Origin: Azolla caroliniana
Taxonomy: Eukaryota > Plantae > Polypodiophyta
Assembly (NCBI GenBank): GCA_043228905.1
Contig: JBHGNT010000004.1
Location: forward strand, 7,812,001-7,876,000
Length of the DNA stretch: 64,000 bases
Direction of reading: 5' to 3'
A program made the translations under genes and the position numbers. The notes under the pieces were generated by a model. It had not been told where the DNA came from, did no database searches, and saw only the letters and a program-made list of their open reading frames with translations. Positions 1,469-51,580 of this stretch are shown here, in pieces (within the stretch, counting starts at the first letter, position 1; each line of letters starts with the position of its first letter).

Positions 1469-1472
1469 CATT

Positions 1473-1490
1473 TGGTGAACCCGACGTGAA
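1473..1490 (+). promoter_or_regulatory. Primer-binding site complementary to the 3' end of tRNA-Trp
   Basis: TGGTGAACCCGACGTGAA is the reverse complement of the plant tRNA-Trp 3' end (TTCACGTCGGGTTCACCA), 4 nt after the LTR. Confidence 0.85.
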
Positions 1491-1507
1491 AGCGGCGACA
1501 AGGAGAA

Positions 1508-11511: not shown

Positions 11512-12288
11512 GATTGATCCCCCCCCATTACACAAGCCTTACAAGGGTTTTTATAGGTTTATCTATCCTTCTAACATGCACAAAACCATGTGGGCTTGAA
11601 CCTGTGGTTTTCGGGCACACGGTTTTCCTTGTGGCATGCACAAAACCATAGGCTAAAACCATGGTTTTGTGTACACGATTTTGTTTGTTTGTTTCCTATG
11701 GAATACTAAATATGAAAAGGAAATATACAAAATCTAAAGCACTTAGTAGTAGCTTTAGTGGTAAGATAATTGCTTCCTATCTTACAAATGCAAGGTTCAA
11801 ATCTTGCTTGCACCCTTCTATATGCACTTGAATGTCATCAGACCCTAGGCTAATTTTCATATTTATAATCATGTGTATAATGTGTGTGGAGCCACACTAT
11901 TTCACAATTTCTCCCATTGGACACAGAACATCACAACAACGTCACACAACCGCTCCCGTTCTGGCTGTTGCTGCTGCGGCGGTGATACCGGCAATTCAAT
12001 GATCGGTTCTTGATTCACCGGTACTGCCGTGTCCTAGACCGTTGGTTCCACGATGTCCTACCGCAGCCCTTGCTCCGTTCCCGATTCTTGTTGAGCCAGT
12101 TATGCTGCCTTCCTCGGCTACGGATCCTCAGGGGAGGGTTCCCGTAAATTGTCCTATGTTAGCCTTGATGTTCCCCCTTTGTGGCCCTTTTCTCTTCTCT
12201 GGTAACGCCTTTGAAGCGTCTCGGTCGGCTCGTCTTCCTATTGTTCTTCTTCCAGGGTCTCGTTGTTGATTAACGCCGCCAAGGGGTC

Positions 12289-12987
12289 CTACCCCTGTGT
12301 TTTCTCTGGTTGTTGGTCTGCTTGTTGTCCCGACAGGCGCAACTTGATTTTCAACGGTCTCCCCGAGGGGTCCACTGATGCCTCCTTCTCTGCCAACCGC
12401 TTCCGATTAGGCCATTCCTTCGCCTGGGTAGCCAGGAGTTGCTGCCATTTTGAAGCTGTTTTGGGGGTCGCTTTTGTCGATCTTCCCCTCTTCCTTTGTT
12501 TCATGGGCTCCACCGATGGTGCTAACAGAGTGAGCCATTGCGCCACTGTTGTCCACATCTTTTTGCCATCTTTTATCGAGACGATGGCAACACTCAGGTC
12601 GTCGGCAATCATTACCGGCCAATCCACCTGTACTCCCTCGTAGGTGGCTATGATTAGACCGGTTCTATTCCTGGGCATCGCCGGTGGTCGGGGGTACACA
12701 TGGCCATACTCGTGGAGTACCTGAGCGATTTCCCGAAACAAGAGATCTTCACCGCCTTGTGTGCGGTACGCCTTGCCGCCCAGGGAGTATTCCCCAAAAT
12801 ACCTCGTCAGCAGCTCCGGCGAGGGGTTGTCGATCGAGTAGATTCCCCCTTCCGGTAGGCCGGTCATGGCTCGGATGGCTTCCTCGGTGATGACCTTCGT
12901 GTTGATGTTTTTAACGACATTTTCTGCATCTCCATGTGGCGGTGCTTCGACTATCCGCAAGAATCCCTTCAGACCGTGTTGCTTCAT
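12289..12987 (-). CDS. Extra (env-position) ORF of the Athila-like element; degenerate, function unknown
   Basis: 232-aa sense ORF downstream of integrase (ITEEAIRAMTGLP...VDWPVMI), in the position where Athila-like elements carry an additional ORF. Confidence 0.55.
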   Translation of the reverse strand: MKQHGLKGFLRIVEAPPHGDAENVVKNINTKVITEEAIRAMTGLPEGGIYSIDNPSPELLTRYFGEYSLGGKAYRTQGGEDLLFREIAQVLHEYGHVYPRPPAMPRNRTGLIIATYEGVQVDWPVMIADDLSVAIVSIKDGKKMWTTVAQWLTLLAPSVEPMKQRKRGRSTKATPKTASKWQQLLATQAKEWPNRKRLAEKEASVDPSGRPLKIKLRLSGQQADQQPEKTQG

Positions 12988-15900
12988 CTATTTCTTAGCT
13001 GCTTTTGAGAGTACCATGCATTCCATGTCGTCTTAGGAGTCGGTAGGTTGTGGTAAGATGGGTGCGCCTGCGTGCTCTGCGTGCTCTCGCCTGATCACTC
13101 GTAATCGCCTGTGGACGCTGAGATCTCTGTGTTCGCGAAGTGAAAGGGACTCTACGTGGCGTGGGTTTTCTTTCTCCATTCGTGGTGCCTTTTCTTGATT
13201 CCCACGCATGCATGTCCTGTACTAATATAGCAGTCGGTTGACACGTGGTGCGCCTGTCTTTAAAAGCTTTAATTAGCCACCCACCACACCTTTTCAAAGT
13301 GCCAGTTCGCTCCTCGCCTCTGCATGATGACTTCCTTTTTCTTTTTCTTTTTTATTTATTTTTAATTTGAGTTGACTTAACCGGAAGCACCAGGTCCGTA
13401 TCCTGGTTTTTCCCCATATTCACTTTTGCCGGCCACCTGTCTGTTGTTATCCGGTAATTTTTTCTTGCTTCCTCCTATTGGATCAGCCTCCGTCTGCTCG
13501 AATGGGTTCTGTGGCATCAGTCCACAATACGGTTTGAGTTGAAACCCATTGACCCATTTGCCCATTATCTCACCGGCGAGCGTTCCGAGTTGGTATGAAC
13601 CGTTGAATTCCCACGTTATCCAATATGGTTCGGTCCACCAGAACCGTAGCTTTCCCGACATTGGACCCATCCGGGTCTGGAACACGAGTACCGGCTTGCC
13701 GATCCCGAACATCTTCTCATTGCCCTTTAGGTGCCGATCAACAAACACCTTCCTTCGTCACTGCTCTAGTTCCAACTACATGAGACTTGCTATCCAATGT
13801 TCCTCGAGTTCGCATAATGCGACTAACCGGATCTTTTCTGATTCCTTTTCACTTAGTCGTTCTCTAACCTATATCCGCAAACTCGGAACCTGAAATTCAA
13901 TCGACATTACTGCTTCAAGCCCAAATGTTAACCGGAATGGTGTTGACCGGATACTCGTTTTGTGTGCCGTCTGGTATGCCCATAGGGCACTATGTAGCTT
14001 GGTGTCCCGATCGGTTCGGTTTTCATTGACGATCTTTCGCAGGATGTTTTGGAGCGTTTTGTTCGTGGATTCGGCCAGGCCATTGGCTTGTGGATAGTAA
14101 GGGGTACTACGCTTGTGTACCACGGCATAAAATGTTGTTAAGCTCTCCACTACTTGACCGAGAAAATGTCTGCCTTGGTCACTAATTAATTCGATCGGGC
14201 ATCCATACTGGCACCAGATGCACTCATATAAGAACTTTATCGTCAAAGCCGCAGTGTTGTCCTGCAACGCCTTGGCTTCTACCCACTTGGTGCAATAATC
14301 GGTGGCGACTATGACATATCTGTTGCCAGTTCTCATTGCCGGAGGTTTAAAAGGCCCAACGAAATCCAACCCCCATTTCTGAAATGGTTCTAAGGGTAGC
14401 ACCGGCTAGTGAGGCATCCTTGCCTGTTCTGTTCGTTGGCCCATCCGTTGACATAAATCACAGACTTTCGCGTACCGAACCGAGTCCTTTAGTGTCGTCC
14501 GCCACCATAGCCCGCTGTGCCATATCTTTCTTGCCATAGCGTCTCCGGCATAGTGCCCTTCGGCCACGCCACAATGCGCTTCTCGTAATATTGTGTCCTT
14601 TTTGTCGCTTCGCACTACTCGCCGCCATATGCCATCCGCACCTTTGTGGTACAGAGTGTCCTATAGTAGACAAAAATGTCGACTTTGCACCGCTAACCGC
14701 TTCCGCTCATCCCGGTTCATCTCCTCTGGTGGAATTCCCGTGCTTAGGAATTGATGCATGTTGGTTAGCCACTTGTCTTCGTCGACTACCATGCTATCGG
14801 TTACCGTTTCGGCTGTTACTTTAAACAACTCAGCATCCGGAAACTCATTCGGGACTCCATTGCCGGTCTCATCGGAGTCTAACCAGCTCAGATAATCGGC
14901 AACCGCATGCTGTATCCCCGGCCGGTGATATATTTCGAACTCGAACTCTTGTAGCAACAAAGTCCATCGGGCCCGCTTGCCGATGAGTGATGCCTTTGAG
15001 ACCAAATATAACAGCGCTGAGTGGTGGACATGGAAAGAAAATTTCCTTCCCAATAAATAGTGCATGAACTTGGTAACACTGTAAATCATCCCTATGGCTT
15101 CTCTTTCTGTTGTTGAATAATTCCGTTCTGCCTGGGATAGTTTCCGGCTAGCATAATAGACCGGTCGGTACCATTTTGGTTCAGTTAGTTGCATTAGTGC
15201 GCTGTCGATTGCTATGTCGGACGCATCCACGAACACATGGAATTCTTTCGACCAGTTCGGTGGTTGCACCACCGGTGCTTGTGATAGCAGTACTTTTAGT
15301 GCCCGGTAAGCCTCATTCTCCGTATTCGTCCATTGGAATGGTGTCCGGTGAACCGCGGCATGCAATGGTGTAGCAAGATCGGCTAAATACCAGAGCATCC
15401 GGCTATGCCACCAGATTTTCCCTAGAAATCGACTCAAGGCTTTGGCCGTCGATGATGCCGGTGCTTCTAAGATTGCTTTCACCTTATCGGGGTCTACCGC
15501 GATCCCGTCCTTGCAGACAAGATAGCCCAACAATGCACCGCTTGTTACTCCGAATACACACTTTGCTGGATTCAAGCTTAACTGATAACTTCTGCATTTC
15601 TCAAGACATAGCCGGAGGTGTTGGAGATGTTCTCCTTCTCGGCTATACACGGCGAAGTCATCCAGGAATACCTGCATGAATGCCGGAATGAACTCGTCAA
15701 ATATTTCCATGATTATTCGTTGAAAGGTTGCCGGCGCGGTCTTGAGCCCGAACATCATTACCACTGCGACAAAGACTCCCCATTCGGTGATGAATGTTGT
15801 CTTGTCTTGGTCGTCGGGGTGCATCCTTATCTGATTGTAGCCGCTGAAACCATCTAGGAAGCTATACACTTCATGACCAGCTACCGCATCCAACACTCCA

Positions 15901-16892
15901 TCCGTAAACGACAGTGAAAAGGCATCGGTCACTGTCGCCGCATTGAGTTTTCGGTAATCAACGCACACCCGGATTTTACCGTTCTTTTTCGGCACGATGA
16001 CTATGGGACTTAACCATGTGGCTTTTTTCACTGGTCGGGTAAAACCGACCCGTAGCAACTTGTCAATTTCCTCTTTGACTTTTGCCTCATAGTTAGGGTT
16101 CATCCGGTAATGCCGTTGTGCTACCGGTTTGGCATCTTTACTGAGGTGTATTTGGTGTTGGTACAACTGAGGATCCAGTCCTCACATGTCTTCATAGGAC
16201 CAGGCGAATACGTCTCGGAATTCCTTTAATAAAGTGATCATCGCCATTCTGTTGTCTAGTGACATTTCCTTAGCAATATGAACCGGTCTAGCGTTGTCCC
16301 CGGTCCCTAAGTTCACTTCCTCTAACTTGGATGCTTTCACGCGTTGGGATATAGCCATCTCCCTCTCCAGAGATTCCTGTGCTTGCCGTAAATCTCTGAT
16401 AGCTTCCCAATCTGGTTCCTCGATGGCATCATCTGATTGCATTCTATATGGTGGCACTACTTCCGCCACATCGATTTCAAATAGGGGTACAATTTTTGGG
16501 TTTTCTTCTAAGTACCGGTCAACCTCTTCGTCCGCAAGCCCCTTGAGCATGTTTACCCCTTCCGCATATAGCAGTGTCAGCTCCTTGCCGGCACTTGCTC
16601 GGGGGTGGGTAGGTACCCTTTAGTCTTTCCTTGCCGGAAGGTAATCATGTTTTTCCGCCAATTTTGTTTGATATGCGCCGTTTTTAGCCATGGGCGGCCC
16701 AGCAATGGCGGGTAAGCCCCTTGCGCATTGAGCTAGAGAACCACCGCCGAAATGCGGAATGCATGACCTCTGATAGTTACAACTAGATCCCGTATCAACC
16801 CGGTAGGTCTTACTGAACTTGTATCCGCCATCCGGAGCCAAAACTGGCAAGGCTCCCATTCCTGGATTCCCAGGGTATTACAAGTCCGTAGA

Positions 16893-18291
16893 TGTTGTCC
16901 GCTGGAATAGTAACCGACGGCCAAAAGCGTAGGAATAAGAAACTATATAAAGCGTAACGTATGTAACGGTTCACACGGGTACGCGTGAACGGCTAATTAG
17001 ACCCTGCATATATAAAGGGCAGAAAACCTCGTAAGGAGGTGTGTGTAAATTCTGGGAATTGTAAAAAGAATGCCTGATAATAGAATACTATCTTCTCTGA
17101 GTTTCTGTGTATAGCTACGGCTAATTCAGTGTCTGTGTCTCGGATATGTAATCGTAAGAGTACGTAAGCGCAACCTGTGAGAAGGAGTCGGTTGTAGCCG
17201 TCTCCCCTTACACACAGCGGAGTCACAGAGATTCTCTCCTTACGTAGTACGATTAAGCTTTGTTCGTTGTTCCACACCCACCTTGGGGTCTAGGTCGAAG
17301 GACTGACCACGGACCGTGTTTCCTAAGAGGCAACACTTTTGGCACGCCCGGTGATCTGTGTTTCCTCATAGACGAGCAACAACGAATGGATGTTTAGCCG
17401 CAGATGACTCAGAGTTCCCCACAAGACCAGATAGCGAAACGATTAACCAACAAAAGGTCCAGCCCACGCCATCTTCAGAAAACGCGGAAAATAGTGCGGA
17501 CCAGGCGGAATCCCCGCCCCACGCCCAGGGACACACAAAAACGGCCAACACCGCGGAGGACGTAACAATAGCGGCGGAGCACCAGCCGACAGCAAGCACG
17601 CTACCGGCGGAGCCTAGTCCACGAACTCAAGAAGAGCCCACCGTACCCGGACCACCCGCACACGGCGAAGGCGACTCCGAGAGAAACCAGGCCGACCAAG
17701 CAGAGGAGCCGCACCACGATGCTCCTATGGGCCCTACATCAACTCCGGCTGAGGACACCACAACAGAGCCAAACATCCGGGCCATTTTGGAAGAAGATTA
17801 ACGGGATGGGTCCGACATGCAAATGCACTGTCCCACAAGCGTGCCAGGTGTTGTCCGCGGAAATAGTAACCGACGGCCAAAAGCGTAGGAATAAGAAACT
17901 ATATAAAGCGTAACGTATGTAACGGTTCACGCGGGTACGCGTGAACGGCTAATTAGACCCTGCATATATAAAGGGCAGAAAACCTCGTAAGGAGGTGTGT
18001 GTAAATTCTGGGAATTGTAAAAAGAACGCCTGATAATAGAATACTATCTTCTATGAGTTTTTATGTATAGCTACGGCTAATTCAGTGTCTGTGTCTCGGA
18101 TACATAATCGTAGGAGTACGTAAGCACAACTTGTGAGAAGGAGTCGGTTGAAGCAGTCTCCCCTTACACACAGCGGAGTCACAGAGATTCTCACCTTACG
18201 TAGTACGATTAAGCTCTGTTCGTTGTTCCACACCCACCTTGGGGTCTAGGTCGAAGGACTGACCACGGCCCGTGTTTCCTAAGAGGCAACA
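16893..18291 (+). mobile_element. Small non-autonomous (TRIM-like or internally deleted) LTR element inserted into the host protease region
   Basis: 443-bp LTRs at 16893-17335 and 17849-18291; TSD GTAGA/ATAGA; PBS TGGCACGCCCGGTG at 17340; 513-bp internal region with an acidic/Pro-rich ORF remnant; no PPT. Confidence 0.92.
17340..17353 (+). promoter_or_regulatory. PBS complementary to a tRNA-Arg(UCU)-type 3' end
   Basis: TGGCACGCCCGGTG, 4 nt after the 5' LTR end. Confidence 0.8.
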
Positions 18292-21200
18292 ATAGACTGA
18301 TCACGTTCATGCTTGATCCTCCATCCACCATCGTCCCTAGTAGTTCGCGTCCTTTGACGATGGCGGTGATTGCCGGACTGTTCGTGTCTACCACTGCTGG
18401 CCCTTCTTCTAGATTTGAGAAGAACGCAGGAGCCGGCAACGGAATTGATATGGTCACTCCTGATTTCAGCCCTTCCGTAAACCAGGGCACTAGCTGTAAT
18501 AACCGACCCAATGGCAACGTAATCTGACATTCTTGTAACGCTTGGCATGTTGGGTTTTCCAGCTGAATCGTGTCGGTGGCCTCTTCTGGTTTCTCCTTTT
18601 GTTGTTCAAGCTCAGCCACATTGTGCTCATTTGCCTTCTTCATCCACTCGGTGGCTTGCTTTCAGATTGCCTCTTGTGTTTCCCACTCCATTGTTTTGCC
18701 TTTGCCCTGGTGGTGACTTGTTGTATGTCGGCGATTTCTGTGACCACCATATTTACAGCTGGTCTTATCTCGTAGCTTTTAACCGGACATTGATTACTGT
18801 AATGTCCTTGCCGACAATAGTAGCAATACGCTTTGTGGTTATTGCTGGATTCGACGTTCGCTCCGGTACCCAGTTGAGGTCCTATTGGTGGTCGGTTGGG
18901 TGGTTGGGCTTGGTCCGGTTGGGTGCTTGGCATGCCCTTGTCCAGCTGCCACTAGCGGTCCTCCTTTCTAGTGTTCCATTTTTTGTTGTAGCGTTTCTTG
19001 TTCCGGTAACCCTGTCGGGGCCAATTTTCATAGTTGCCTTGATCCTCCCTTTGTTGGTTGTAGCCGGGGGAGTGATCCCGGTTGTATCGCTCGTATTGTT
19101 CACCGTTGTAATCTCGGTAGCTATCCCACCGGTCTCGGTCGTGAGCGTCCTTTCTGTCGTTGTTCCGAATATCTTGCGTCGGCCGGTAACGCTCATCTCG
19201 CCGCCAACGTTCTTCTTCCTCCTCCCGGTTGCTCCGAGGTTCGATTTGCCTTACCGGTGCCACTTGCCGGTTCAGCAAGTTATATTCGCATCGGTCCATT
19301 GTGTGCGTTCTGGAGTCACGACATTACATGCACTGTGTCCGCGTGGTACATTCTATTGCCGAGTGCCCGACATTGAGACACGTCGTACATTGTATAGCTT
19401 GCCGAAAACGTAGGTCATCTTCTGTTGGTAATGTACGTTGGACTGCCCCCATTGTTAGCCACGAGCTTGTTTTTTCCATCTCCCTATCCCGTTCTATGAC
19501 TTGGTCAATCGTACTAGTGTGGAAATCGATCACGGCGCACACTGTACGCAGGGGTTCCTTGAGTGCGGCTAAGAAGATTGCTTTCGCCTCTGCCTCCGGT
19601 GGTGCCCGATTGAGCTGACTGTGCATTCGCTGGAACCGGATTACAAATTGTTGAATGGTTTCCGTAGGTTCCTGTTGTATGGTGTAGAATAGGCCGACCA
19701 TCTCCCGTTGATCCACCTCCTTGTTGAAGAACTATAAAAATCTGGTTTTTAAGTCTTCAAATGTCGTGATGTTGCCGGGAGTGTGCGTCAAGCGCCATTG
19801 CGCGACTGGTCCTTCCAAGGTCATGCCGAACTTTGCAATCTTCGATCATTCTGCTTTGGCGGCGGTCAAGCGTTGCGACACATGGTTTGCTTCCCATGTT
19901 TGCAGAAATGCATAGACATGAGCTTCTACGTCCGGATCATCCCGGTACTTGGGATATTGGAACGACATGTCGTCGTCGGGTGTCAGAGGTCTCCCCTCTT
20001 CTTTCGGTAATAGAGGTCTTTCCTCCTCTTCTTTCGGTGTCTCACGTGGCGGTGTCGGGAGTTGATCCGCCACCTGCTGATCTGGGGCTTCCAGTACCGT
20101 TAACTTCGGTTCTGGTGTCGGCAAGGTATCCAACTACTGGTCCTCCGGTCCGTCTGGGGTGTCGTGGTTGCTACAATAATTCGAATGGGCGATGCATTCA
20201 TCATCTGAATCCGATTCGAAGACCAAGAATGGTTCCAAATCGCCTCCCCCTATCGCTAGTGCCTGCAGAATAGATTCCGAGTCCCGGAGGCTACTCACGC
20301 TACTTCCTTCGTCCGGTTGGGAATTCTGTTGTTCGCGGAGTGACTCTGCGGCCACTCATCGGATTACTTTGGAAAATGAGTGATCCACACGGATCTCTTC
20401 TACCACTTGTTGGAAAGCCTCTCACTTCCGCAATCATTCAGCAAGTCTTCTTGCTCACTCCGTAACCGGGTCATTTGTCGGTCTAGTCATCCATGCCCGC
20501 CGTTGTTCGCTACGTTTGTGCAGGAATCGTGGTCGCCAAAAACTGTGTAATCGCTAGGGCCAGACAATGGCCTAACAAAGGGTGTCCCTTTGAGACACTT
20601 CACCAAAGGGGTGTTGCGGTGAGATAGAGTTAGACCGACTATTAATGGAACCTTAATGGGTTACTTGCGGCAATATCAATAGTCACAATACACGCGTAGG
20701 ATAAATTACACTTAGCACAGAACGGTAATTAACAATGATTAAGATACAGAACAACAACACTCTATTAATTATCAGTTAATGATTACAATCTAACCGGCCC
20801 TTTTTATAGGTCTCCGGTTTTAGGTACAAACCGGTGCCAACCGGCAACCGGCTACGAACCGGTCAGGATCCGGATCGGCATACCGATTCTGTGTCTGTTC
20901 ATTCGCTTCTCAAATCATAATAATAAATATATAATTAGCTCCTAGTTATTAATTATCCCCTCGTTTCCCATTCTGGACTTTCCTTGCCGACTGGCTAACA
21001 AAAGGCACGTTATTACAGGTGACACGAGTCTCGAGTAAGCGTTGGTCATTCCCAAGAACTTTAACCGCAAATCTGACCACTAAGCGAGCAAATACTTATT
21101 ACATTCGACTTTGATGTAATCGCCAAATGTATTCAAAAGCCCTAACTAAGGCACCGTGGTGGCAATTACTTCATAGGTTGATTCCTCTTAAGTTTCAACA

Positions 21201-21337
21201 CGTGCACGAAATCTTAAGAATCCCTAAAACACTCCTCGAACGAAGCTCGGGCCATAACGTCTTGAATAATGACCCACGCAAGGAGGGAAAGAAGATTGTA
21301 GCGGTGGTTTTGACGTACAACTAATTCAACCACGTAG

Positions 21338-21409
21338 TATCAAAGCGAGGTTTCAATCCTCGAACCAGTGGGTTATGGGCCCACCACGCTTCCGCGGCGC
21401 CACTCTAAT
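21338..21409 (-). tRNA. Initiator tRNA-Met(CAT)-derived copy, probably a pseudogene
   Basis: Minus strand ATTAGAGTGGCGCCGCGGAAGCGTGGTGGGCCCATAACCCACTGGTTCGAGGATTGAAACCTCGCTTTGATA: 72 nt, intact anticodon arm, iMet-type T-loop with substitutions, no adjacent oligo-T terminator. Confidence 0.85.
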
Positions 21410-22809
21410 GCGGACGGCTTAAAAGTCAAAGAGAGGTAAATAATGCAAAGAGAACAACATGAGAGGTCTTGCTTATTTCTCCTTGTTAAAAAACTCAAGA
21501 AGGCATGGAAAAGTTATAAACAAGATCGATGTTAGCAAATGGAGTGTGAACAAGCCGAGCATGAGCACGACGGGTGGCGTCGTTAAGTAGTATAGATGTT
21601 CGTACGTACTCGACGCATGTCAATGAGTCTGCCTCATTCGTTCTCGCGTCGGAGTTGGTGTGGGAAAACACCCTCTTGTGGGCATCACAAGAGAGAGGGC
21701 GACCTAATTGTTCTCGAGTGTGCCAACATACCATATTAGCACACTAGGAAACCATCTTGCTCACCGTAGCACGTCGAGGTTTTGTGTCATCTATCGGACT
21801 CGGGTCACCACTTGTATGGTTGCACCAAATTGGGAAAATGATCGACACTAGTTTGACGCCAATTTTCGTTCCCTTGCCCTCAAACGTTATATGGTACATG
21901 CCACAAACCTCAAGAAGCGACCCCTCCTCGAAACTAGGTGAGACGGCCTCCAACCCGATGACATGCGGAGGTGGTAGGTTTGTCGACTAGAAAACAACTC
22001 CAGCTTTACAGCATTTCGAGAACGATGTCATTCATTACAGCAAGAACTTCTCGTTTCTTCTCCGTTGACGTTACATTGGCAAGGAAAGGAGAACAAGAGA
22101 ACTGATTTCAACCGTCTGTTTTGATGAGCGGTTGTTGGTGCACATGATTTGGCTCATGCAAAATCTCAAATGCTGCAGCTAGTGTCTTGAAATGATGTTA
22201 AAAGATGGTTACATATCCCACCGATCTATGGCTTTGTTCGGTAAAACTTGGAAGGCGAGATGATGTTGTGAGGATGTTTGGTCGGGAAGACAAGTCCGCA
22301 ACCTTGGATGGATTGGTAGATGAAGGGTAAATTGCACTAATATTGTCAATGGTAAGTTCTAACGTGTTGCAATGAACATCATGTTGTAATGACTCCCGTT
22401 AAAAGCAAAAGAAAGACCTAAGAGTAAGCATTAAGTCTGATGTGCAGTTGTGGGAAATGTTGTGCAGCGTGGTTGGAGTTCTCAATTGCGGTTTTCGTCC
22501 AAGGTGTTCATACGTACAACGATAATGTGTGGTCTTCCTCGGCGTTATTACAGGTGACACGAGTCTCGAGTATGCGTCAGTCATTCCCAAGAACTTTAAC
22601 TGAGGATTTGACCACTAAGCGAGCAAATACTTATTACATTCGACTTTGATGTAATCGCCAAATGTATTCAATACGTGCGCAAAATCTTAGCAATCCCGAA
22701 AAAACTCTCGAACGAAGCTCGGGCGGTAACGTCTTGAATAAGGACCCACACAAGGAGGGAAACAAGATCGTAGCGATGGTTTTGATGTACAACTCATTCA
22801 ACCGCGTAG

Positions 22810-22883
22810 TATTAGAGCGAGGTTTCGATCCTTGGACTTGTGGGTTATGGGGGCCCACCACGCTTCTGCTGCACCACTTTGAT
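22810..22883 (-). pseudogene. Second tRNA-iMet-derived copy, with a 2-nt insertion in the anticodon loop
   Basis: Minus strand ATCAAAGTGGTGCAGCAGAAGCGTGGTGGGCCCCCATAACCCACAAGTCCAAGGATCGAAACCTCGCTCTAATA. Confidence 0.85.
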
Positions 22884-23599
22884 GCGGACGGCTTAAAAGT
22901 CAAAGAGAGGTAAATAATTCAAAGAGAACAACACAAGAGTTCTTGCTTATTTCTCCTTGTTAAAAAACGAGCACGACGGGTGTCCTCGTTAAACAAGATC
23001 GATGTTAGCAAATGGAGTGTGAACAAGTTGAGCACGAGCACGACGGGTGTCCTCGTTAAGTAGTATGGATGTTCCTACGTACTCGACGCATGTCAATGAG
23101 TCTGCTTCGTTCGTTCTTGCGTCGAAGTTGGAGCGGGAAAACATCCTCTTGTGGGCAACACGAGAGAGAGGACGACCTGATTGTTCTTGAGTGTGCCGAC
23201 ATACCATATTAGCTCACTAGGAAACCATCTTGCTCACCTTAGCACGTCGAGGTTTTGTGTCATCCGTTGGACTCGGGTCACCGCTTGTATGGTTGCACCA
23301 AATTGGGAAAATGATCGATGGTAGTTTCACGCGAATTTTCGTTCCCTTTCTAGAACCCTGAAACGCTATATGGTACGTGCTGCAAACCTCGAGAAGCGAC
23401 CCCTCCTCGAAACTAGGTGAGACGACTTGTAGCCCGATGACTTGCGGAGGTGGAAGGTTTGTAGACTAGAAAACAACTCGAGCTTTGCAACATTTCGAGA
23501 ATGATGTCATTTGTTACAGCGAGAACTTCTCGTTTCTTCTTAGTTGACGTTACATTAGCAAGGAAAGGAGTCCTCTAGCACAGTCATCAAAGCCATTGT

Positions 23600-24617
23600 C
23601 CCGCTCATTTTGCAACTCTAGTCCCACCAGGAGGGAGGCCTTATCCTTTTACCTCATCACTTCACCACGACATCCAATTATACTTGGGTTGTCTTGGTTG
23701 AAAGCCAACAATCCTATTATAGATTGACACAACCACTCGCTTACTTTTAAACCGTGATCTCACATGGAGGTTGGAGCGGCTTCCCAGGTTGTTGTGTCTG
23801 AATGGTCCAAATCGTTTTCTGTCGATCACTCCTCCATTCAAGTAGGAAATGGTTCCAACTCGATTGCTCATGCCCCAGTCGCAACACGTTCCATCTCAAT
23901 GGGCAATGGCTCAAAATCGAGTATCCAAGCTTTGGTTCGAAAACCACTCTCAACTCGCTTCCATCCAAATATGGTGACTTTGTTGATGTGTTCAAGAAGA
24001 AGAATGCCCCAATAATGCAGATCACTTACTGGAGCATCGACCATATGATTGTCCAATCAATTTGCAAGAAGGCGCCTCTCCACCATTTGGGCCCATCTAT
24101 GGCCTCTCTAAACCAGAACTAGAGGCTCTTCAAACATATCTAGCTGAAAATTTGGAGAAGGACTTCATCCAATTGTCTAAGTCACCTGTTGGGGCCGTCA
24201 TCTTGTTTGTCAAGAAAAAGGACGGATCGTTGTGCCTATGTGTGGATTATCGTGGCCTACCTTTAATCCTAGAACTCCTCGATCGCCTTCGTAAAACATG
24301 TGTCTTCTCCAAGATTGACTTGCGGGGGGGCATACCACTTAGTTCAGATTAAACCTGGTGATGAATGGAACACAATATTTCATATGTGATACAGACACTT
24401 CGAGTACAAGGTAATGCTCCAACTATTTTTTAACATATGATGGATGACATATTTCGAGAATATCTCGATCACTTTGTCATTATCTACCTTGATGACATTC
24501 TTGTCTTTTCGTCGATCATTGAAGAGCATACTCACCACGTTCGATTGATTCTCTCCAAATTCAGGGAGCATGGCCTCTATGCCAAGAGTGAAAAATGCGA
24601 GTTTGATCGCAATTTTG
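23600..24617 (+). mobile_element. Degenerate Tcn1-like gypsy PR-RT fragment
   Basis: [10 protein letters not shown]...[17 protein letters not shown]...FSKIDLRG; YLDDILVFS; frameshifted. Confidence 0.85.
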
Positions 24618-25334
24618 TAGAATTGTGTGTTTTGCTTCCTGTCTTCTATTTGTTCGACACCAATACACACTACATTATAACCGGTTGGGGCCGTCTTCGA
24701 TCTCTTCATAAATGATGATGAGGATACTACCGGCCACAACCGGTTCATACATGTGTGTATGCGGATGCAAAGATCGAAATGACAAAAAAAAAATAGAAGA
24801 CAGGAAATAAAAGTACAGAAACACTGTTGTATGTATGGCTGGACTAGCCGCAACACAGGTGTCTATCCGACACTTCTCCAAAGGGGTGGTAGGGATAGGA
24901 TGTTAATACACGCGTATGATAATTACACTTAAGCACAGACGAAGACAAGATTAATAAGCATAAGCAAAACTGTATTAATTCTTCGCCACTTCATTACAAA
25001 CATCGGATCCTTTTATAGGCATCCGGCCAGATTACAATCGGTGCTCGGTAGGCAACCGTTAACCGAAACCGAATCGGTTCGGATCCGGATCGGTTACAAC
25101 TACCAGATCCGTCCCTCCTAATAATTCTATTCCTATTTCTATATTTATCCGATCCGACCTTGCTTCCCCATTTGCCTTCTCTGACCGGCCAACACATGGC
25201 ACGCCCGTGGGAAAGTGCATTGCACTTCGAACCCACAGCCGGCTTCAGTCTTCCTCCAAATTATCCCGCAAACTCCGCTCAGAGGTTTCAAGTGTTGTCT
25301 TGCCTGTGCCGTCTCCGACTTCTGATTGGATTGG

Positions 25335-26345
25335 CTACCTTTTCGCATCTTGCTGCTCCGACTCTGCTTGTACCGGTGGTACCGGTGTTTCTTCTGTATC
25401 CTGTCCGGGTCTGTCCTGCTCCACCTCCGTTCCGTTCCCGGTATCGCTCTCTCCGGTTTCCACTGGTTGTGTCCTTTCCTCCCCGGATTCGGTACTTCTC
25501 TGTCTCCACTCTGCATCATCCCCGGCATCAACCTGTTCTTGCTCCGAAAGTTCTTCCTCGGGTAATTCTTGTCGGGGTGCATTGTTGGTTGGGTCCTCTT
25601 CAGCCGGTCGCTCGCCCTCACTGATGGAGATCGGCGTTGTGTGTCCCTCGGCTTCCTGTCGCAGTCGGTCCTTCTCGTACCCTTCCAATTCTAGTTGGGT
25701 TTCGAGCTGCCCGTCATCCAACCTCTCTACTAACCCTCGGATTTCCTTGAGATGCTCTTCTGCTAGAGCATAGAAATCCTCCGACAATTCTTCCCGGATG
25801 TTGACGATACTTTCTTCGTCCATTTTATAGAACCCATCTCCGGTTTTCTTCCGATTTTCTGCATCAGCTCGGAGTGTCTGCAGTTCAGCTGCCTGTTGTG
25901 CCCATTCCCTCCAGAGTTTCTCCGTGCTTTCATTTATGCTGGCCTGAGCTCGGGTACTCCAACTTGACATGATGAACTTAATTCGGTCAACCCCTGCTTT
26001 AGCCTGTTCCGAAGCTGCTTGTTTTTCCTTCCTTATCCGTTTGATGATGTCGGCCATTAACTGAGCTTGAGCTTCAGAGTCGGCTTTTTGCTTGTCACAG
26101 GTACTCCGCCATTTGTTGATTTCGAAAGTCGACTTCACTTTTTCCTCGTTCCTGCTCTCTGTCAGCTCCCCTACTTTCTGTCGAAGTACTTCCATCTCCT
26201 TTCTTTGTTCCGACGTCAAGGTCTTCTCCGTCGATACTTCCTCCCTTGCTTTGGACAATTCCAAGCGGTTTTCCTTGAGCTGCTCTTTCAGCTTCTCTAT
26301 CTGTCGGTCGTACGTTGCTGCCTGATTCTTGATGTCCGACGATAG
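25335..26345 (-). CDS. Coiled-coil/acidic ORF remnant (3' part of an Athila-like extra ORF), copy 1
   Basis: Uninterrupted frame, K/E/Q-rich heptad-like N half and acidic disordered C half; native start missing (fused to the LTR). Confidence 0.6.
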   Translation of the reverse strand, partial: LSSDIKNQAATYDRQIEKLKEQLKENRLELSKAREEVSTEKTLTSEQRKEMEVLRQKVGELTESRNEEKVKSTFEINKWRSTCDKQKADSEAQAQLMADIIKRIRKEKQAASEQAKAGVDRIKFIMSSWSTRAQASINESTEKLWREWAQQAAELQTLRADAENRKKTGDGFYKMDEESIVNIREELSEDFYALAEEHLKEIRGLVERLDDGQLETQLELEGYEKDRLRQEAEGHTTPISISEGERPAEEDPTNNAPRQELPEEELSEQEQVDAGDDAEWRQRSTESGEERTQPVETGESDTGNGTEVEQDRPGQDTEETPVPPVQAESEQQDAKR

Positions 26346-26855
26346 TGTTGTATGTATGGCTGGACTAGCCGCAACACAGGTGTCTATCCGACACTTCTCC
26401 AAAGGGGTGGTAGGGATAGGATGTTAATACACGCGTATGATAATTACACTTAAGCACAGACGAAGACAAGATTAATAAGCATAAGCAAAACTGTATTAAT
26501 TCTTCGCCACTTCATTACAAACATCGGATCCTTTTATAGGCATCCAGCCAGATTACAATCGGTGCTCGGTAGGCAACCGTTAACCGAAACCGAATCGGTT
26601 CGGATCCGGATCGGTTACAACTACCGGATCCGTCCCTCCTAATAATTCTATTCCTATTTCTATATTTATCCGATCCGACCTTGCTTCCCCATTTGCCTTC
26701 TCTGACCGGCCAACACATGGCACGCCCGTGGGAAAGTGCATTGCACTTCGAACCCACAGCCGGCTTCAGTCTTCCTCCAAATTATCCCGCAAACTCCGCT
26801 CAGAGGTTTCAAGTGTTGTCTTGCCTGTTCCGTCTCCGACTTCCGATTGGATTGG

Positions 26856-27866
26856 CTACCTTTTCGCATCTTGCTGCTCCGACTCTGCTTGTACCGGTGG
26901 TACCGGTGTTTCTTCTGTATCCTGTCCGGGTCTGTCCTGCTCCACCTCCGTTCCGTTCCCGGTATCGCTCTCTCCGGTTTCCACTGGTTGTGTCCTTTCC
27001 TCCCCGGATTCGGTACTTCTCTGTCTCCACTCTGCATCATCCCCGGCATCAACCTGTTCTTGCTCCGAAAGTTCTTCCTCGGGTAATTCTTGTCGGGGTG
27101 CATTGTTGGTTGGGTCCTCTTCAGCCGGTCGCTCGCCCTCACTGATGGAGATCGGCGTTGTGTGTCCCTCGGCTTCCTGTCGCAGTCGGTCCTTCTCGTA
27201 CCCTTCCAATTCTAGTTGGGTTTCGAGCTGCCCGTCATCCAACCTCTCTACTAACCCTCGGATTTCCTTGAGATGCTCTTCTGCTAGAGCATAGAAATCC
27301 TCCGACAATTCTTCCCGGATGTTGACGATACTTTCTTCGTCCATTTTATAGAACCCATCTCCGGTTTTCTTCCGATTTTCTGCATCAGCTCGGAGTGTCT
27401 GCAGTTCAGCTGCCTGTTGTGCCCATTCCCTCCAGAGTTTCTCCGTGCTTTCATTTATGCTGGCCTGAGCTCGGGTACTCCAACTTGACATGATGAACTT
27501 AATTCGGTCAACCCCTGCTTTAGCCTGTTCCGAAGCTGCTTGTTTTTCCTTCCTTATCCGTTTGATGATGTCGGCCATTAACTGAGCTTGAGCTTCAGAG
27601 TCGGCTTTTTGCTTGTCACAGGTACTCCGCCATTTGTTGATTTCGAAAGTCGACTTCACTTTTTCCTCGTTCCTGCTCTCTGTCAGCTCCCCTACTTTCT
27701 GTCGAAGTACTTCCATCTCCTTTCTTTGTTCCGACGTCAAGGTCTTCTCCGTCGATACTTCCTCCCTTGCTTTGGACAATTCCAAGCGGTTTTCCTTGAG
27801 CTGCTCTTTCAGCTTCTCTATCTGTCGGTCGTACGTTGCTGCCTGATTCTTGATGTCCGACGATAG
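26856..27866 (-). CDS. Coiled-coil/acidic ORF remnant, copy 2
   Basis: Same translation as copy 1. Confidence 0.6.
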   Translation of the reverse strand, partial: LSSDIKNQAATYDRQIEKLKEQLKENRLELSKAREEVSTEKTLTSEQRKEMEVLRQKVGELTESRNEEKVKSTFEINKWRSTCDKQKADSEAQAQLMADIIKRIRKEKQAASEQAKAGVDRIKFIMSSWSTRAQASINESTEKLWREWAQQAAELQTLRADAENRKKTGDGFYKMDEESIVNIREELSEDFYALAEEHLKEIRGLVERLDDGQLETQLELEGYEKDRLRQEAEGHTTPISISEGERPAEEDPTNNAPRQELPEEELSEQEQVDAGDDAEWRQRSTESGEERTQPVETGESDTGNGTEVEQDRPGQDTEETPVPPVQAESEQQDAKR

Positions 27867-28236
27867 TGTTGTATGTATGGCTGGACTAGCCGCAACACAG
27901 GTGTCTATCCGACACTTCTCCAAAGGGGTGGTAGGGATAGGATGTTAATACACGCGTATGATAATTACACTTAAGCACAGACGAAGACAAGATTAATAAG
28001 CATAAGCAAAACTGTATTAATTCTTCGCCACTTCATTACAAACATCGGATCCTTTTATAGGCATCCAGCCAGATTACAATCGGTGCTCGGTAGGCAACCG
28101 TTAACCGAAACCGAATCGGTTCGGATCCGGATCGGTTACAACTACCGGATCCGTCCCTCCTAATAATTCTATTCCTATTTCTATATTTATCCGATCCGAC
28201 CTTGCTTCCCCATTTGCCTTCTCTGACCGGCCAACA

Positions 28237-28394
28237 AACACAAGTATTTTTAACGTGGAAACCTTGATAGGGAAAAACCATGGGAGTCCACAAACTCCAA
28301 GAACTATAACACAATGGGAGAAAGGAATACAACTGTAAGAAACTACAAGGCAACGACCTTTTACAGTTCTTCTTCGTGAAATCGACCCTCTCAC

Positions 28395-32867: not shown

Positions 32868-35249
32868 CTAGATGGAGAGATCTACGTTGATGTCATTCCA
32901 CCAACAATGTCCTCGTGTGTCCCATGCTTCATTTTTCCATCTCAAGGTTTCAACCTTGTTTGCTTCCACATGCATGCCGGAAGCTGAATACATGTTTCTC
33001 ATACACACATATGCAACACCACACTTCTTATCTAAGTCTACCAACTGATCAAAGACCCATTTTCCAAGCTTCACATTCACCCATTTGGAACATGCACCCA
33101 ACAAAGCTAATAACAAGGGAAAACGATTCTTGTATTGCACCATCTCGAGCATACTTACAGCTTTGCTAAAGTGTCCCGCTCGACCAAAAAGATCGACCAT
33201 GGAGGTGTAGTGCTTTAATGTCGGAAAAATACCATAGAGAACGCCCATATCATCAAATATTCTGTGCCCCTCATCCATTAGGCCTGCATGGCTACATGCC
33301 ATGAGAAGAACAAGAAAGGTAACTATATCTGGCGCAATATTGTCATCTGATACCATTTCCTTGAACAAATAAAAAACGTTCTGGGCTTGACCTAGCTGTG
33401 CATATCCAGCCATCAATAAGCTCCAAGATACGATATCCCTGACTTGAATCTTGCGAAACACATCTTCTGCCTTTTCTAACATACTACATTTAGCATACAT
33501 GTCCACCAATGCAGATTCAAGCATAATGTTTCCTTGCAAGGATCCACTTTCATGGCTAACTTCTGCAGATATCTCTTCACCCACCTTGAGAGAGCCTATG
33601 CTTCCACAAGCTTTCAAACCACAACAATATGTGATAGCATCCGGTGAAATTCCCTCATCCTTCATCTTCCAGAGGCAATTCAGAGACTCCTCAAAGAAAC
33701 CATGTTGGGCATATCCAACCATGAGCGTATTCCAACCGACAATATCATGATGTGAAAGACCATTAAACACTTCTTGTGCTTTTTCCATAGATCCACATTT
33801 GGCATACAAATTCACTAACATATTTCCAAGCTCAATATTTTTCTCCAGTAACCCTTGCTTCTTGACATCTTTGTGTATCTTTTCTCCCATCTGAAGATCT
33901 CCAATGCTACAACAAGCTTTTAATACACAAATATATGTGATTTGATCGGGGTGAATGCCTTCACTTTGCATTTGCCTGAAACAAGTTAAAGCTTCATGGC
34001 CAAGGCCGTGCCTTGCATACCCCGAAATAAGTGCACTCCATGAGACAACATCATGTACCTGAAGCCGATCAAATACTTCTTGTGCTTTTCTCAGTTCACT
34101 GCAATTCACATACATGTCCACTAATGTCGGCCCAAGGGCTTTGCTCTTTTCTATCAAACCTCGCTTTTCGACCTCAGCATGTATCTTTTCTCCCTTTTCA
34201 AGAGACCCAATGGCACCGCAAGCTTTCAATATACTGACAAAAGTGAGAGCATTAGGGGAGACACACTTCTTCTCCAGTTTCATCTTCTTTAAGCAATCCA
34301 AAGCTTCATCGATAAGTCCATGCCGGGCATATCCAGCTATTAGTGCATTAAAAGATACCACATCTCGTCTTGGGAGAAGCTCATTGAAAACTTCTTGTGC
34401 TTTCTTGAGCACTCCACATTTCGCATACATATCCACCAATGCTGTGCCCAGTACCATATCCTTCTCTAGCAAAAAGCCATGATCCATTACTTGGCTATGG
34501 ATCTCTTCTCCTACCTCCAAAGACCCTTTCCCAGCACAAGCTTTTATAACACAAAGAAAAGTAACCAAATTCGGGGATATGCCCTCATTTTGCATCTTTC
34601 TAAAGCAAAACAAAGCCTCATCGAAAAGTTCGTGCCGAGAAAAGCCAGAAATCATTGCATTCCACGAGATAATATTGCGAATCAGGAACTCGTCAAAGAC
34701 CTTCTCCGCTGCTCGAACAACATTACACTTTGCATACATGTCCACTAAAGCAGTGCCAAGAATTATATTCCTCTTTAAGAGACCCCGTGAGATGACCATG
34801 GCATGTATTTCTTTACCAACAGAAAGATCTCCGCTGCAACTACAAGCTTTCAGAAGGCATGAAAAAGTGACTGCGTCTGGAAGGATAGCTTCCTCACACA
34901 TCAATCTATAACATTTTAAAGCTATATTGTGACCAGAGTCTTGCTTTGAGAAGCCAGTTATCAGGGTATTCCAAGCCACAAGATCTCTCACAGGAAGAAT
35001 ATCAAATAGTTTTTGGGCATCTCCCATTTCGCCACACTTTGCATAGAGGCTAAGCAGGGCGGTAGAGACATGTATGTCTTTACTATTATAGACCTCATTT
35101 TGGTTAACAATTCTTCGTGCTTTCTTCAGATCTTTGAGATTTTGGCAAGATTTGATCAATCCCACAAGGGATTTACGGCCTATCTGATTGCTAGGTAAGC
35201 CATTGGACAGAGAAATTCCAGAAGCAGCGGGTTCATGGACGCCCTGCAT
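32868..35249 (-). CDS. PLS-class pentatricopeptide repeat protein with C-terminal E domain and no DYW (organellar RNA-editing factor type), intronless
   Basis: 793 aa with repeated triplets (ALVDMYAKCG...A..VF / DVVSWNALI.GY / P..VTF..VLKAC), terminal LMACSHAGL, HYTSMVDLFGRAG, E-domain-like end RGHCWW. Confidence 0.95.
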   Translation of the reverse strand: MQGVHEPAASGISLSNGLPSNQIGRKSLVGLIKSCQNLKDLKKARRIVNQNEVYNSKDIHVSTALLSLYAKCGEMGDAQKLFDILPVRDLVAWNTLITGFSKQDSGHNIALKCYRLMCEEAILPDAVTFSCLLKACSCSGDLSVGKEIHAMVISRGLLKRNIILGTALVDMYAKCNVVRAAEKVFDEFLIRNIISWNAMISGFSRHELFDEALFCFRKMQNEGISPNLVTFLCVIKACAGKGSLEVGEEIHSQVMDHGFLLEKDMVLGTALVDMYAKCGVLKKAQEVFNELLPRRDVVSFNALIAGYARHGLIDEALDCLKKMKLEKKCVSPNALTFVSILKACGAIGSLEKGEKIHAEVEKRGLIEKSKALGPTLVDMYVNCSELRKAQEVFDRLQVHDVVSWSALISGYARHGLGHEALTCFRQMQSEGIHPDQITYICVLKACCSIGDLQMGEKIHKDVKKQGLLEKNIELGNMLVNLYAKCGSMEKAQEVFNGLSHHDIVGWNTLMVGYAQHGFFEESLNCLWKMKDEGISPDAITYCCGLKACGSIGSLKVGEEISAEVSHESGSLQGNIMLESALVDMYAKCSMLEKAEDVFRKIQVRDIVSWSLLMAGYAQLGQAQNVFYLFKEMVSDDNIAPDIVTFLVLLMACSHAGLMDEGHRIFDDMGVLYGIFPTLKHYTSMVDLFGRAGHFSKAVSMLEMVQYKNRFPLLLALLGACSKWVNVKLGKWVFDQLVDLDKKCGVAYVCMRNMYSASGMHVEANKVETLRWKNEAWDTRGHCWWNDINVDLSI

Positions 35250-37111
35250 ATCTCTCTTCTCCTGTATTTACTTTCATCCGTCCATGGAAGTGTCTCTCCT
35301 TCTTAGGTCCTTTCATGCATGCATGATCTTCTGCTTTTGTTAAAGCACAAGGAGATGCATAGATAGTGGCCATGAAGAGCTGTCATTGAATCATACTACC
35401 ATTACACGGGCTCTCATATTTAGGTTATGCCTATGGTGATTTCATCAAGATGCATAAGATTAACACTAATAACACAAGGATTTGGGGTTTAATTGGTGCA
35501 ATCATTTTTATTAATATTAATTAGAAGCACGAGTATGTACTATTGGAAAATTTAAAATGCTCAAAGGCCATCTCCTAATATTTAAAAAACATAGAGGGTA
35601 TCATGGTAATTTGATATAATTGGTGCTGCTCATTATAATATTAAGTCCATGGCATAATCCTAGTTTGTGGGAAGCATGAGGTAAGTTACCATTAGCGTTT
35701 TAGAATTACTAATATCCCACCAAAACTAGTGTGTCAAGACTCAAGAATTTATCTTCACAAGGCAACATTTAATGTTTTGAAGCATGTAAGGAAAGTGCAA
35801 GGATGATAGACACAACCAACCACTAAGTATGCATGGAAGATCGAATGGCATTGGGATGAATTTCCATGTCACATATAGACGCCAATTTAACCACCACCTA
35901 TTGCTCACCAATTATCTATGCAATGATGGCCATGTTTGTTACACTTCTCACATTTCTCCTAGTAAGCAAAACAATAAGAATGGGTTCATCTTCCACATGG
36001 GACCGTGACTCAAATGTTAATATGAGAACCCTTTGTAGAATAACTGTGCAAAATACTATAAACATGATTGGAATTCACCTCATGAGACATTTGGACATCA
36101 GCTTACACGGAACAATTGTATGGACAAAAAAGTAGAAATTGTATTTCTGAGAAAAGCCCCCAAGAAAATCATGTTTTAGAGACTTCTTGAAAGGAAGCCC
36201 CTCAACTCTAATAAAGCATACATAGAAAAGATTGATAAGAAGCATATTTTAGTAATTCTGGAATGAACAAGCATATTTTATTGATTTTGGTTTGGTTTCA
36301 CTTTATATTCCAAGCAATAAATTTCTAATTTGACTAACCAAGATAAATGCTACTCTTTAATTTCTGCAGCATTATACATTATACATTCTGCAACATGTTT
36401 GTCATATCTGATTTGCAATGATTATACACGAGACGTCATAAATCATTTTAATTGCACAAAAAAAGCGATAGTACTTAAAAGACCTTTTATAAAATTGGTC
36501 TTTAATGAGCAACAGTACTAAAATGCTAAGTTTGATAACAATTTCATGATATAGCAATAGCAGAATCTTTCTCCAAAAGATTGTTTGTGGAAAGGTGGCG
36601 AATGTGATGGATGCATGAAACGTGAAATAACCATCCAAAGTGAATAAATGATCTCTTCAATAACTTTCTTAACAAGACTCAAGAATAAGCTGTGATTCGT
36701 GTATATAGCTCACTACCAGGTATAATATGTGACGGTCAAGAAACAGCCAAAAATGCTTGTAATGACATGACCCAGGGAATGATGTCCTAGAAAAGGCTGA
36801 GCATGCTTCACTTCCATCGCATTCAAATGATCAGGTAAAAATGCTGAATTTGCTGTCTGAAGTACAAAAAACTTGGAACAAGTCTGAACCTTTGTTATTC
36901 AAAGCAATGAACCACTACTTGCTCCCAATAATAAAATCTTTTCACATCAATTTTCCACATGTAAATAAAACCTGAACACCTACAATCAGTCACAGTTTCA
37001 ATTTTAAAATGGCTTGAAGACATTTAATCCCCTTAAAATACCCTTTACAATTGCTTTTGCTTATATATGGATGAATAGCAAAGAAAAGCAGAGGACCTTA
37101 TCTCCTTTATA

Positions 37112-51539: not shown

Positions 51540-51580
<41 letters not shown>

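What the first reader, a model, noticed from the sequence alone, without database searches (positions are those of the whole stretch)
25195..25240. tRNA-Arg 3'-half mimic replaces the polypurine tract before the 3' LTR (three-LTR element)
Seen: on the element's sense (minus) strand the sequence abutting the downstream LTR is GTGGG-TTCGA-AGTGCAATGCACT-TT-CCCAC-GGGCGTG-CCA-TG|TGTTGG, repeated at 26716-26761. It is not purine-rich. It reads as a tRNA T-arm (GTGGG/CCCAC stem, TTCGA), acceptor 3' strand and encoded CCA, with a hairpin inserted in the T-loop, and ends 2 nt before the LTR, mirroring normal PBS spacing. Established: LTR elements normally prime plus-strand DNA from an RNaseH-resistant PPT, and the other elements in this window have one. 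Inference: this lineage may prime the plus strand with a second host tRNA annealed to minus-strand DNA, or with its own structured tRNA mimic, or may supply its own primer. I know of no description of this arrangement.
Basis: partly seen in the sequence, partly recalled or inferred. Interest (0 to 1): 0.85.

Follow-up and report, generated by a model that had tools for sequence, protein, structure and literature searches.

The report
tRNA tail replaces retrotransposon polypurine tract
A group of plant jumping genes lacks the purine-rich signal that normally starts their second DNA strand and carries at that spot a conserved, split copy of an arginine tRNA's tail, so a tRNA likely starts the second strand as well as the first, a route our literature searches did not find.

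Summary
Real, and a lineage feature. The 40-nt motif (25197-25236, again 26718-26757, minus strand) matches the 3' arm of a tRNA-Arg(UCU), split by a 13-nt hairpin, and ends in CCA 2 nt before the 3' LTR; there is no purine tract. This copy has no 5' PBS, so the reversed reading had to be tested. It fails: relatives in four runs carry an ordinary, different PBS after the other LTR, and a second family in the window (16893-18291) has both a PBS and the motif. The motif also precedes LTR starts in 69 of 84 metagenome loci (11 clusters). The three-LTR copy is a deletion derivative, probably duplicated after insertion. Best reading: host tRNA-Arg anneals to minus-strand DNA and primes the plus strand (0.5); rival: the element's own RNA acts as a tRNA-like primer (0.3). 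Priming is untested, the host tRNA gene was not seen, and no intact autonomous copy with its 3' end was examined. The scan noted the same motif on other pieces of this genome before (at least 14 notes).

The parts
25197..25236 (-). tRNA-Arg(UCU) 3'-arm copy (tRNA positions about 49-76, CCA included), split between positions 58 and 59, one base short at 65/66; stands at the PPT position
25214..25226 (-). 13-nt inserted hairpin inside the tRNA-like arm
25195..25196 (-). 2-nt spacer (TG) between CCA and the 3' LTR
26718..26757 (-). second, identical copy of the motif before the middle LTR
24825..25194 (-). 3' LTR (370 nt, TG...CA), 2 differences from the other two
26346..26715 (-). middle LTR, identical to the 5' LTR
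27867..28236 (-). 5' LTR; TATA-like box on the minus strand at LTR position 178
27863..27866 (-). 4-nt remnant of the LTR-PBS spacer at the deletion joint (same at 26342-26345); PBS, gag, pol and two thirds of the extra ORF are missing
25335..26341 (-). 3' third of an extra ORF downstream of pol (97% DNA identity to the 1053-codon ORF of L042), ending at an early stop; same piece at 26856-27862
24820..24824 (+). target site duplication AACAC (partner at 28237-28241)
17340..17353 (+). second family: ordinary tRNA-Arg PBS, 4 nt after its 5' LTR (16893-17335)
17806..17846 (+). second family: same split tRNA-Arg motif, ending in CCA 2 nt before its 3' LTR (17849-18291)
20529..21000 (-). related decayed gag-pol element: 5' LTR (20544-21000, 70% like the finding's LTR over 200 nt) and PBS identical over 14 nt to the PBS of the finding's family
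12000..20520 (-). gag, RT-RNase H, integrase and extra ORF of that related element (extra ORF 44% like the start of the L042 ORF); its 3' end is not in the window

Best explanation
This is a non-autonomous copy of a plant Ty3/gypsy lineage that has no polypurine tract and carries a split copy of the tRNA-Arg 3' arm 2 nt before the 3' LTR, where a second host tRNA-Arg likely anneals to the new minus-strand DNA and likely primes the plus strand. Shown: position, orientation, conservation, tRNA likeness, lack of purines. Inferred steps: (1) a tRNA at the ordinary PBS starts the minus strand; (2) after RT copies the motif and RNase H clears the RNA, the minus DNA shows a PBS-like site whose last 10 nt are left open by the hairpin; (3) tRNA-Arg(UCU) binds there, probably in two parts, with the insert looped out at position 58; (4) RT extends the CCA end through the 2-nt spacer and the LTR; (5) RNase H removes this primer as it would a PPT, leaving the usual 2-nt left end for integrase. 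The three-LTR form is a local accident: an inserted copy lost PBS-gag-pol by deletion and was then likely duplicated by unequal recombination between LTRs.
For: Motif equals the 3' arm of a tRNA-Arg(UCU) gene apart from the insert and one base (the gene is from a prokaryotic virus contig, a stand-in for the host gene). Orientation: contigs in 4 of 4 runs and 3 of 4 runs as listed continue from the other LTR end into a PBS; the second family has PBS and motif at opposite ends; L068 has RNase H pieces in the motif's sense. Conservation: 69 of 84 loci, 28 LTR starts, 11 clusters; the upstream arm, which the search did not fix, is there in 62 of 69 copies; 4 of 4 further copies found without spacer or LTR in the model also end 2 nt before TGTT. 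Summed depth at the motif is 8-29 times the next internal bin in four organism labels. A purine run of 8 or more within 60 nt of the LTR in only 3 of 67 copies. The insert falls at position 58, the methylated A where RT stops on tRNA (PMC3185662). At positions 67-68, 35 of 39 changed copies show only G>A, which keeps G-T pairing with a tRNA. The motif stays Arg(UCU)-like where the PBS is for another tRNA. Close pol relatives keep the RNase H acidic motifs.
Against: No priming was observed. The host tRNA gene and an intact autonomous copy with its 3' end were not seen (no genome). The lineage's PBS keeps only about 10 nt, so a tRNA site does not obviously need both stem strands; that favours a folded structure. 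The conserved one-base deletion forces a bulge in a tRNA duplex. G>A is also the commonest decay change; in the T-loop part, wobble-compatible changes lead by copies (36 to 15) but not by clusters (7 to 11, some from mis-anchored rows). A tRNA on DNA is an RNase H substrate and could be cut before it primes. The search pattern fixed 20 bases, so tail invariance was not measured without bias, and 3 of the 4 extra copies carry a change in the tail. The plant-like loci named come from one series of assemblies and are not independent.
Confidence: 0.5

Rival explanations
1. The element's own RNA is the primer: RNase H cuts after CCA, the last 10 nt stay on the minus DNA and the upstream part folds as a T-arm-like hairpin, imitating a tRNA bound to a 10-nt PBS.
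For: Both stem strands are kept (5-7 changes at positions 49-53 in about 70 copies) although the lineage's PBS needs only about 10 nt. The window copy folds into one long hairpin with a free tail (z -2.58). A few changes on both sides of the inner stem. Changes at 67-68 would be harmless.
Against: An own-RNA primer always matches its DNA, so the tRNA-identical tail and the T-loop remnant need an extra reason to persist. Fold z-scores are mixed (-2.58 to +1.17 in six RNA folds). Pairs changed on both sides are not above shuffles (3 pairs, 172 of 500). The hairpin must form out of a perfect RNA-DNA hybrid.
Confidence: 0.3
2. The motif works at the RNA level (pairs with the PBS or with the opened primer tRNA to join the RNA ends, aid strand transfer or packaging), and the plus strand starts from some other RNA fragment.
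For: PBS and motif pair over 10-11 nt in 15 of 23 PBS cases and vary together at one position in two large families. Ty3 and Drosophila gypsy use 3' tRNA sites to bridge RNA ends (PMC5371799; PMC1635307).
Against: In the finding's family and L062 the PBS is for another tRNA and pairs over only 4 nt. The joint variation is about one evolutionary event. It does not explain the fixed 2-nt gap, the exact CCA end or the missing PPT.
Confidence: 0.12
3. The motif is a relic of an old tRNA capture, kept by descent only, or the element is read backwards and the motif is just its PBS.
For: This copy has no PBS at the other end, and on the plus strand the motif reads as LTR, CA, then a tRNA-Arg PBS.
Against: Relatives have a PBS at the other LTR; the second family has both; extra ORF, TATA-like box and pol pieces all read on the motif's strand; the reversed reading has no PPT either (9 of 18 purines); the motif outlasts LTRs and flanks that no longer align.
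Confidence: 0.08

Closest known systems
PPT-primed Ty3/gypsy and retroviral reverse transcription (Ty3, PMC5371799 passages; retroviruses, PMC3185662 passages)
   Same: LTRs with TG...CA ends, 5-bp target duplication, tRNA PBS after the 5' LTR, a fixed signal right before the 3' LTR, gag-RT-RNase H-integrase order in the related element.
   Different: The signal before the 3' LTR is not a purine tract but a sense copy of a tRNA 3' arm ending in CCA.
Athila and Tat (OTA non-chromoviruses; PMC6317226 section 13, passages and Additional file 5; ATHILAfinder preprint 10.64898/2026.03.20.713144 passages)
   Same: No chromodomain found after integrase, extra ORF after pol, 5-bp target duplication, T-rich 4-6 nt spacer before the PBS in some families; tRNA-Arg PBS as in TatIII, Ogre and Retand.
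   Different: No extra RNase H (so not Tat); PBS is not Asp/Asn/Ala and no Athila ORF-1 hit; Brassicaceae Athila keep a PPT junction in 97%.
Bipartite or second PBS of Ty3, Ty1 and Drosophila gypsy (PMC5371799 passages; PMC1635307 abstract, sections 19 and 22)
   Same: A tRNA-related site near the 3' end of the element, involving the T arm; a split site with a loop (Ty1).
   Different: Those sites are complementary to the tRNA on the RNA, bind inner tRNA parts and serve the minus strand or end-bridging; gypsy's 3' site is dispensable for cDNA. Here the site is identical to the tRNA's very 3' end on the RNA, so the 3' end could bind only the minus DNA.
Self-priming of Tf1/Tcn1 and TAR (PMC6317226 section 13)
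   Same: Element RNA cut to give a primer, as in the main rival here.
   Different: That replaces the tRNA for the minus strand, from the 5' LTR; it does not replace the PPT.
tRNA-like sequence in HIV-1 U3-R (Piekna-Przybylska 2010; title only, seen in the reference list of PMC11241228; paper not held)
   Same: A tRNA-related sequence at the 3' end of a retroelement genome.
   Different: By its title it promotes minus-strand transfer; HIV-1 keeps its PPT (PMC11241228 passages).

Membership tests
LTR retrotransposon (non-autonomous copy) | Direct LTRs with TG...CA ends and a target site duplication | tested here: met
   370-nt LTRs, AACAC duplication
LTR retrotransposon (non-autonomous copy) | tRNA PBS after the 5' LTR | tested here: met
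   Met for the family and the second family; deleted in this copy
LTR retrotransposon (non-autonomous copy) | Polypurine tract before the 3' LTR | tested here: not met
   8 of 18 purines, longest run 3; longest run at most 4 in the last 25 nt of 73 copies, part of which the search pattern fixed
Ty3/gypsy | RT-RNase H-integrase order in the autonomous partner | tested here: met
   Met in the related element 21000-12000; the link to the finding's family rests on LTR, PBS and extra-ORF likeness
Tat (TatI-III, Ogre, Retand) | Additional RNase H (aRH) before RT, after RNase H or after integrase | tested here: not met
   No such Pfam hit in three frames of 12000-14699, 16100-16888 and 18295-20520 read with X at stops; the element is decayed
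Athila | PBS for tRNA-Asp, Asn or Ala | tested here: not met
   PBS are Arg-type against Additional file 5; the Arg(UCG) label for one PBS type is recalled
Athila | Athila ORF-1 domain (in 16% of members only) | tested here: not met
   No hit in the L042 ORF or four relatives
Athila / OTA | RT-RH-INT tree places it in the clade | not testable with these tools
   Reference sequence file too large to read
Chromovirus | Chromodomain after integrase | tested here: not met
   No hit after integrase, while the window's chromovirus gives one
Ty3/gypsy-type bipartite PBS | 3' site complementary to the tRNA on the genomic RNA | tested here: not met
   The site is identical to the tRNA on the sense strand
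tRNA-primed plus strand (proposed) | [quoted passage not shown] | not testable with these tools
   Needs replication intermediates

The most novel reading that the evidence does not exclude
A whole Ty3/gypsy lineage has abandoned the polypurine tract and starts both DNA strands from tRNA 3' ends, in some families from two different arginine tRNAs, using mirror-image primer sites at the two LTRs.
Probability: 0.5. Interest if true: 0.9.

Novelty: new variant of a known kind. Interest (0 to 1): 0.78.

Why it matters
PPT priming of the plus strand is treated as a general step of LTR retrotransposons and retroviruses (PMC5371799, PMC3185662). A successful, multi-family lineage without it would show that RT and RNase H can use a tRNA end or a tRNA-like RNA at that step. 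It gives a short, defined substrate to test how plus-strand primers are chosen, and it predicts that annotation tools that require a PPT miss or reverse these elements. Either of the two leading mechanisms would be new as far as our searches reached.

Tried and rejected
No genome is held, so no genome-wide census. ARAGORN finds no tRNA in the window and Rfam no tRNA in 16800-28300: the motif is not a tRNA gene. The split motif was not found in prokaryotic genomes or viral contigs. 15 of 84 loci were set aside by eye as chance-like (other contig series, no upstream arm). Folding against shuffles is mixed for RNA and null for DNA (z -0.64 to +0.01). The pair count is weak because the search fixed the 3' halves and some rows are out of register. 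Duplex energies used RNA parameters and a stand-in tRNA, and only restate complementarity. The idea that the PBS-less form spreads as its own family was not supported: no contig across the deletion joint was laid in 4 of 4 runs, though contigs drop rare forms. No RNA holder was listed. No look-alike window in other genomes. None of the 69 loci holds a whole pol together with the motif. The extra ORF has no confident Pfam family and its 98 relatives are unnamed. Nine paper searches found no description; only listings and abstract starts were seen for most hits, subscription papers are largely missing, and the large supplements of PMC6317226 and the preprint's supplements could not be read and may bear on lineage placement.

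Full report
Observation. They abut LTRs of a 3.4-kb element with three 370-nt LTRs and a 5-bp target duplication. The last 18 nt hold 8 purines with a longest run of 3; the Phygy-like, copia and chromovirus elements of the window have 13-15 with runs of 8-12. A pattern for the split arm matches 3 times in the window and never in 100 shuffles. The host looks like a seed-free land plant by inference: a PPR gene with an E motif and pol relatives named from Riccia, Calypogeia, Adiantum, Cryptomeria and conifer gene models. No genome is held.

tRNA likeness. A search for the two halves joined found one stretch in viral contigs, and ARAGORN calls it tRNA-Arg(UCU) with encoded CCA. Aligned to it, the motif of L012 is the tRNA 3' arm with a 13-nt insert after position 58 and one base missing at 65/66; the window copy differs from that at one more base. 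This gene is a prokaryotic stand-in. The only host-side evidence is the PBS at 17340, which differs from the stand-in's complement at one of its first 14 positions. The host gene itself was not seen.

Orientation. This copy has no PBS after its upstream LTR, and read on the plus strand the motif looks like an ordinary PBS, so reversal had to be tested. Contigs of related copies leave the window sequence at 26342 and run into a PBS of another type in 4 of 4 runs (also listed for 3 of 4 runs). That PBS is identical over 14 nt to the one after the LTR at 20544-21000, which heads gag, RT-RNase H, integrase and an extra ORF on the same strand. Calling it Arg(UCG)-type is recalled. A second family at 16893-18291 has a tRNA-Arg PBS after its 5' LTR and the split motif before its 3' LTR. 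L068 has RNase H pieces upstream of the motif in the same sense. Reversal is refuted.

What this copy is. The internal part is the last third of an extra ORF that is 1053 codons long in L042 (97% DNA identity). It is joined to the LTR plus 4 spacer bases, so PBS, gag and pol are deleted. No contig across this joint was laid in four runs, while each side continues separately at summed depth near 3,700 in X1, so the PBS-less form is probably local; contigs can drop rare forms. The 5' and middle LTRs are identical and share a base at LTR position 170 where the 3' LTR and L078 agree on another, and both units share an early stop absent from L042. This fits insertion, then deletion, then unequal recombination. 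The three-LTR form therefore says nothing special about priming.

Conservation. A metagenome scan gave 87 stretches and 84 loci; 15 were set aside as chance-like and 69 kept. They show 28 LTR starts in 11 clusters, one holding 55 of 74 copies. The pattern fixed 20 bases and the spacer length, so only the rest is a fair test: the upstream arm is there in 62 of 69 copies and exact in 24. Four more copies, found by a profile without spacer or LTR, all end 2 nt before TGTT; three have one change in the tail. Summed contig depth at the motif is 154,621, 50,138, 34,100 and 27,830 in runs of four organism labels, against 11,399, 1,728, 4,124 and 3,457 in the next bin; an LTR block at 26369-26415 peaks as high, and depth is no copy number. 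The kept loci named come from one series of assemblies, so they are not independent. A purine run of 8 or more lies within 60 nt of the LTR in 3 of 67 copies. No locus holds a whole pol with the motif, so the claim for autonomous copies rests on homology here and on unchecked earlier notes.

Mechanism. On the RNA the motif is identical to the tRNA end, so a tRNA 3' end could bind only the minus-strand DNA, pointing into the LTR from 2 nt away, where a PPT primer would end. For host tRNA: the tail is tRNA-like across unrelated LTRs; it stays Arg(UCU)-like where the PBS is for another tRNA; the insert sits at position 58, the methylated A where RT stops (PMC3185662 passages); 35 of 39 changed copies at 67-68 show G>A only; in 4 of 6 DNA folds the first 11-12 nt with the PBS-like site stay unpaired. 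Against: G>A is also common decay; T-loop changes favour wobble by copies (36 to 15) but not by clusters (7 to 11); the missing base forces a bulge; and the PBS keeps only about 10 nt while the motif keeps 40, which suits a folded own-RNA primer. Fold z-scores run from -2.58 to +1.17 and pairs changed on both sides are not above shuffles (172 of 500), so structure is not established either. PBS and motif pair over 10-11 nt in 15 of 23 cases and vary together in two large families, a hint for end-pairing that fails in the finding's own family. I give host tRNA 0.5, own RNA 0.3, RNA-level role 0.12, relic or reversal 0.08. All priming steps are inferred.

Comparison. The partner element is a Ty3/gypsy without chromodomain or additional RNase H, with an extra ORF after pol. 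It resembles the Athila/Tat side but fails the Tat and Athila tests that could be run; no tree against references was possible. Brassicaceae Athila keep a PPT junction (preprint passages). Ty3, Ty1 and Drosophila gypsy have split or second tRNA sites, but these are complementary to the tRNA on the RNA and serve the minus strand or end-bridging. Self-priming lineages replace the minus-strand primer. Nine searches found no PPT-less, tRNA-tail arrangement, within a library that lacks most subscription papers. Seen per paper: PMC6317226 passages, section 13, Additional file 5 and a search of five small supplements; PMC5371799, PMC3185662, PMC11241228 and the ATHILAfinder preprint passages; PMC1635307 abstract, sections 19 and 22; Piekna-Przybylska 2010 title only.

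Earlier notes. The scan recorded the same motif on other pieces of this genome (14 distinct notes shown) and a weaker case in a fungal element. They agree but are not independent support. My reading before the look-up already had the two-family evidence; the notes gave two paper leads.

Verdict. Real lineage feature, new variant of a known kind, interest 0.78. The sequence case is strong; the mechanism is untested and has two live forms that one junction-sequencing experiment would separate.

Noticed in passing
window 551-7978 (+): Young Phygy-like gypsy element: 918-nt LTRs 99.8% alike, DUF4100 gag, RT-RNase H-integrase, PBS and PPT present.
   Followed up: partly
window 16893-18291 (+): 1.4-kb non-autonomous element of a second motif-bearing family, nested in reverse in the pol region of the related gag-pol element; target duplication differs at one base; a related LTR at 2-393 runs off the window.
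   Followed up: yes
window 21008-23570: Tandem duplication of about 1.47 kb (88% alike) holding a tRNA-initiator-Met-like stretch near 21340-21405 on the minus strand; the label is recalled, ARAGORN and Rfam do not call it.
   Followed up: partly
L012, L037, L049, L008, L022, L043, L063: Motif-LTR-PBS order or two motifs per contig show that head-to-tail arrays sharing an LTR are common among non-autonomous families of this lineage.
   Followed up: partly
L042 175-3330 (-): Open 1053-codon extra ORF with a conserved N-terminal part (98 unnamed relatives, no Pfam family) and a long charged, coiled-coil-like tail.
   Followed up: partly
window 26369-26415 (LTR 3' part): A short LTR block shared by far more copies than the rest of the LTR (depth peak as high as the motif's); may be a second conserved cis signal.
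   Followed up: no
window 44700-58046 and 46236-51845: Chromovirus (three related LTR copies) with a nested copia element; both have PPTs.
   Followed up: no
window 32868-35267 (-): 799-codon PPR reading frame with an E motif.
   Followed up: no
L034 1062-1137 and 2756-2828: Two tRNA-Lys genes called downstream of a motif-bearing LTR.
   Followed up: no
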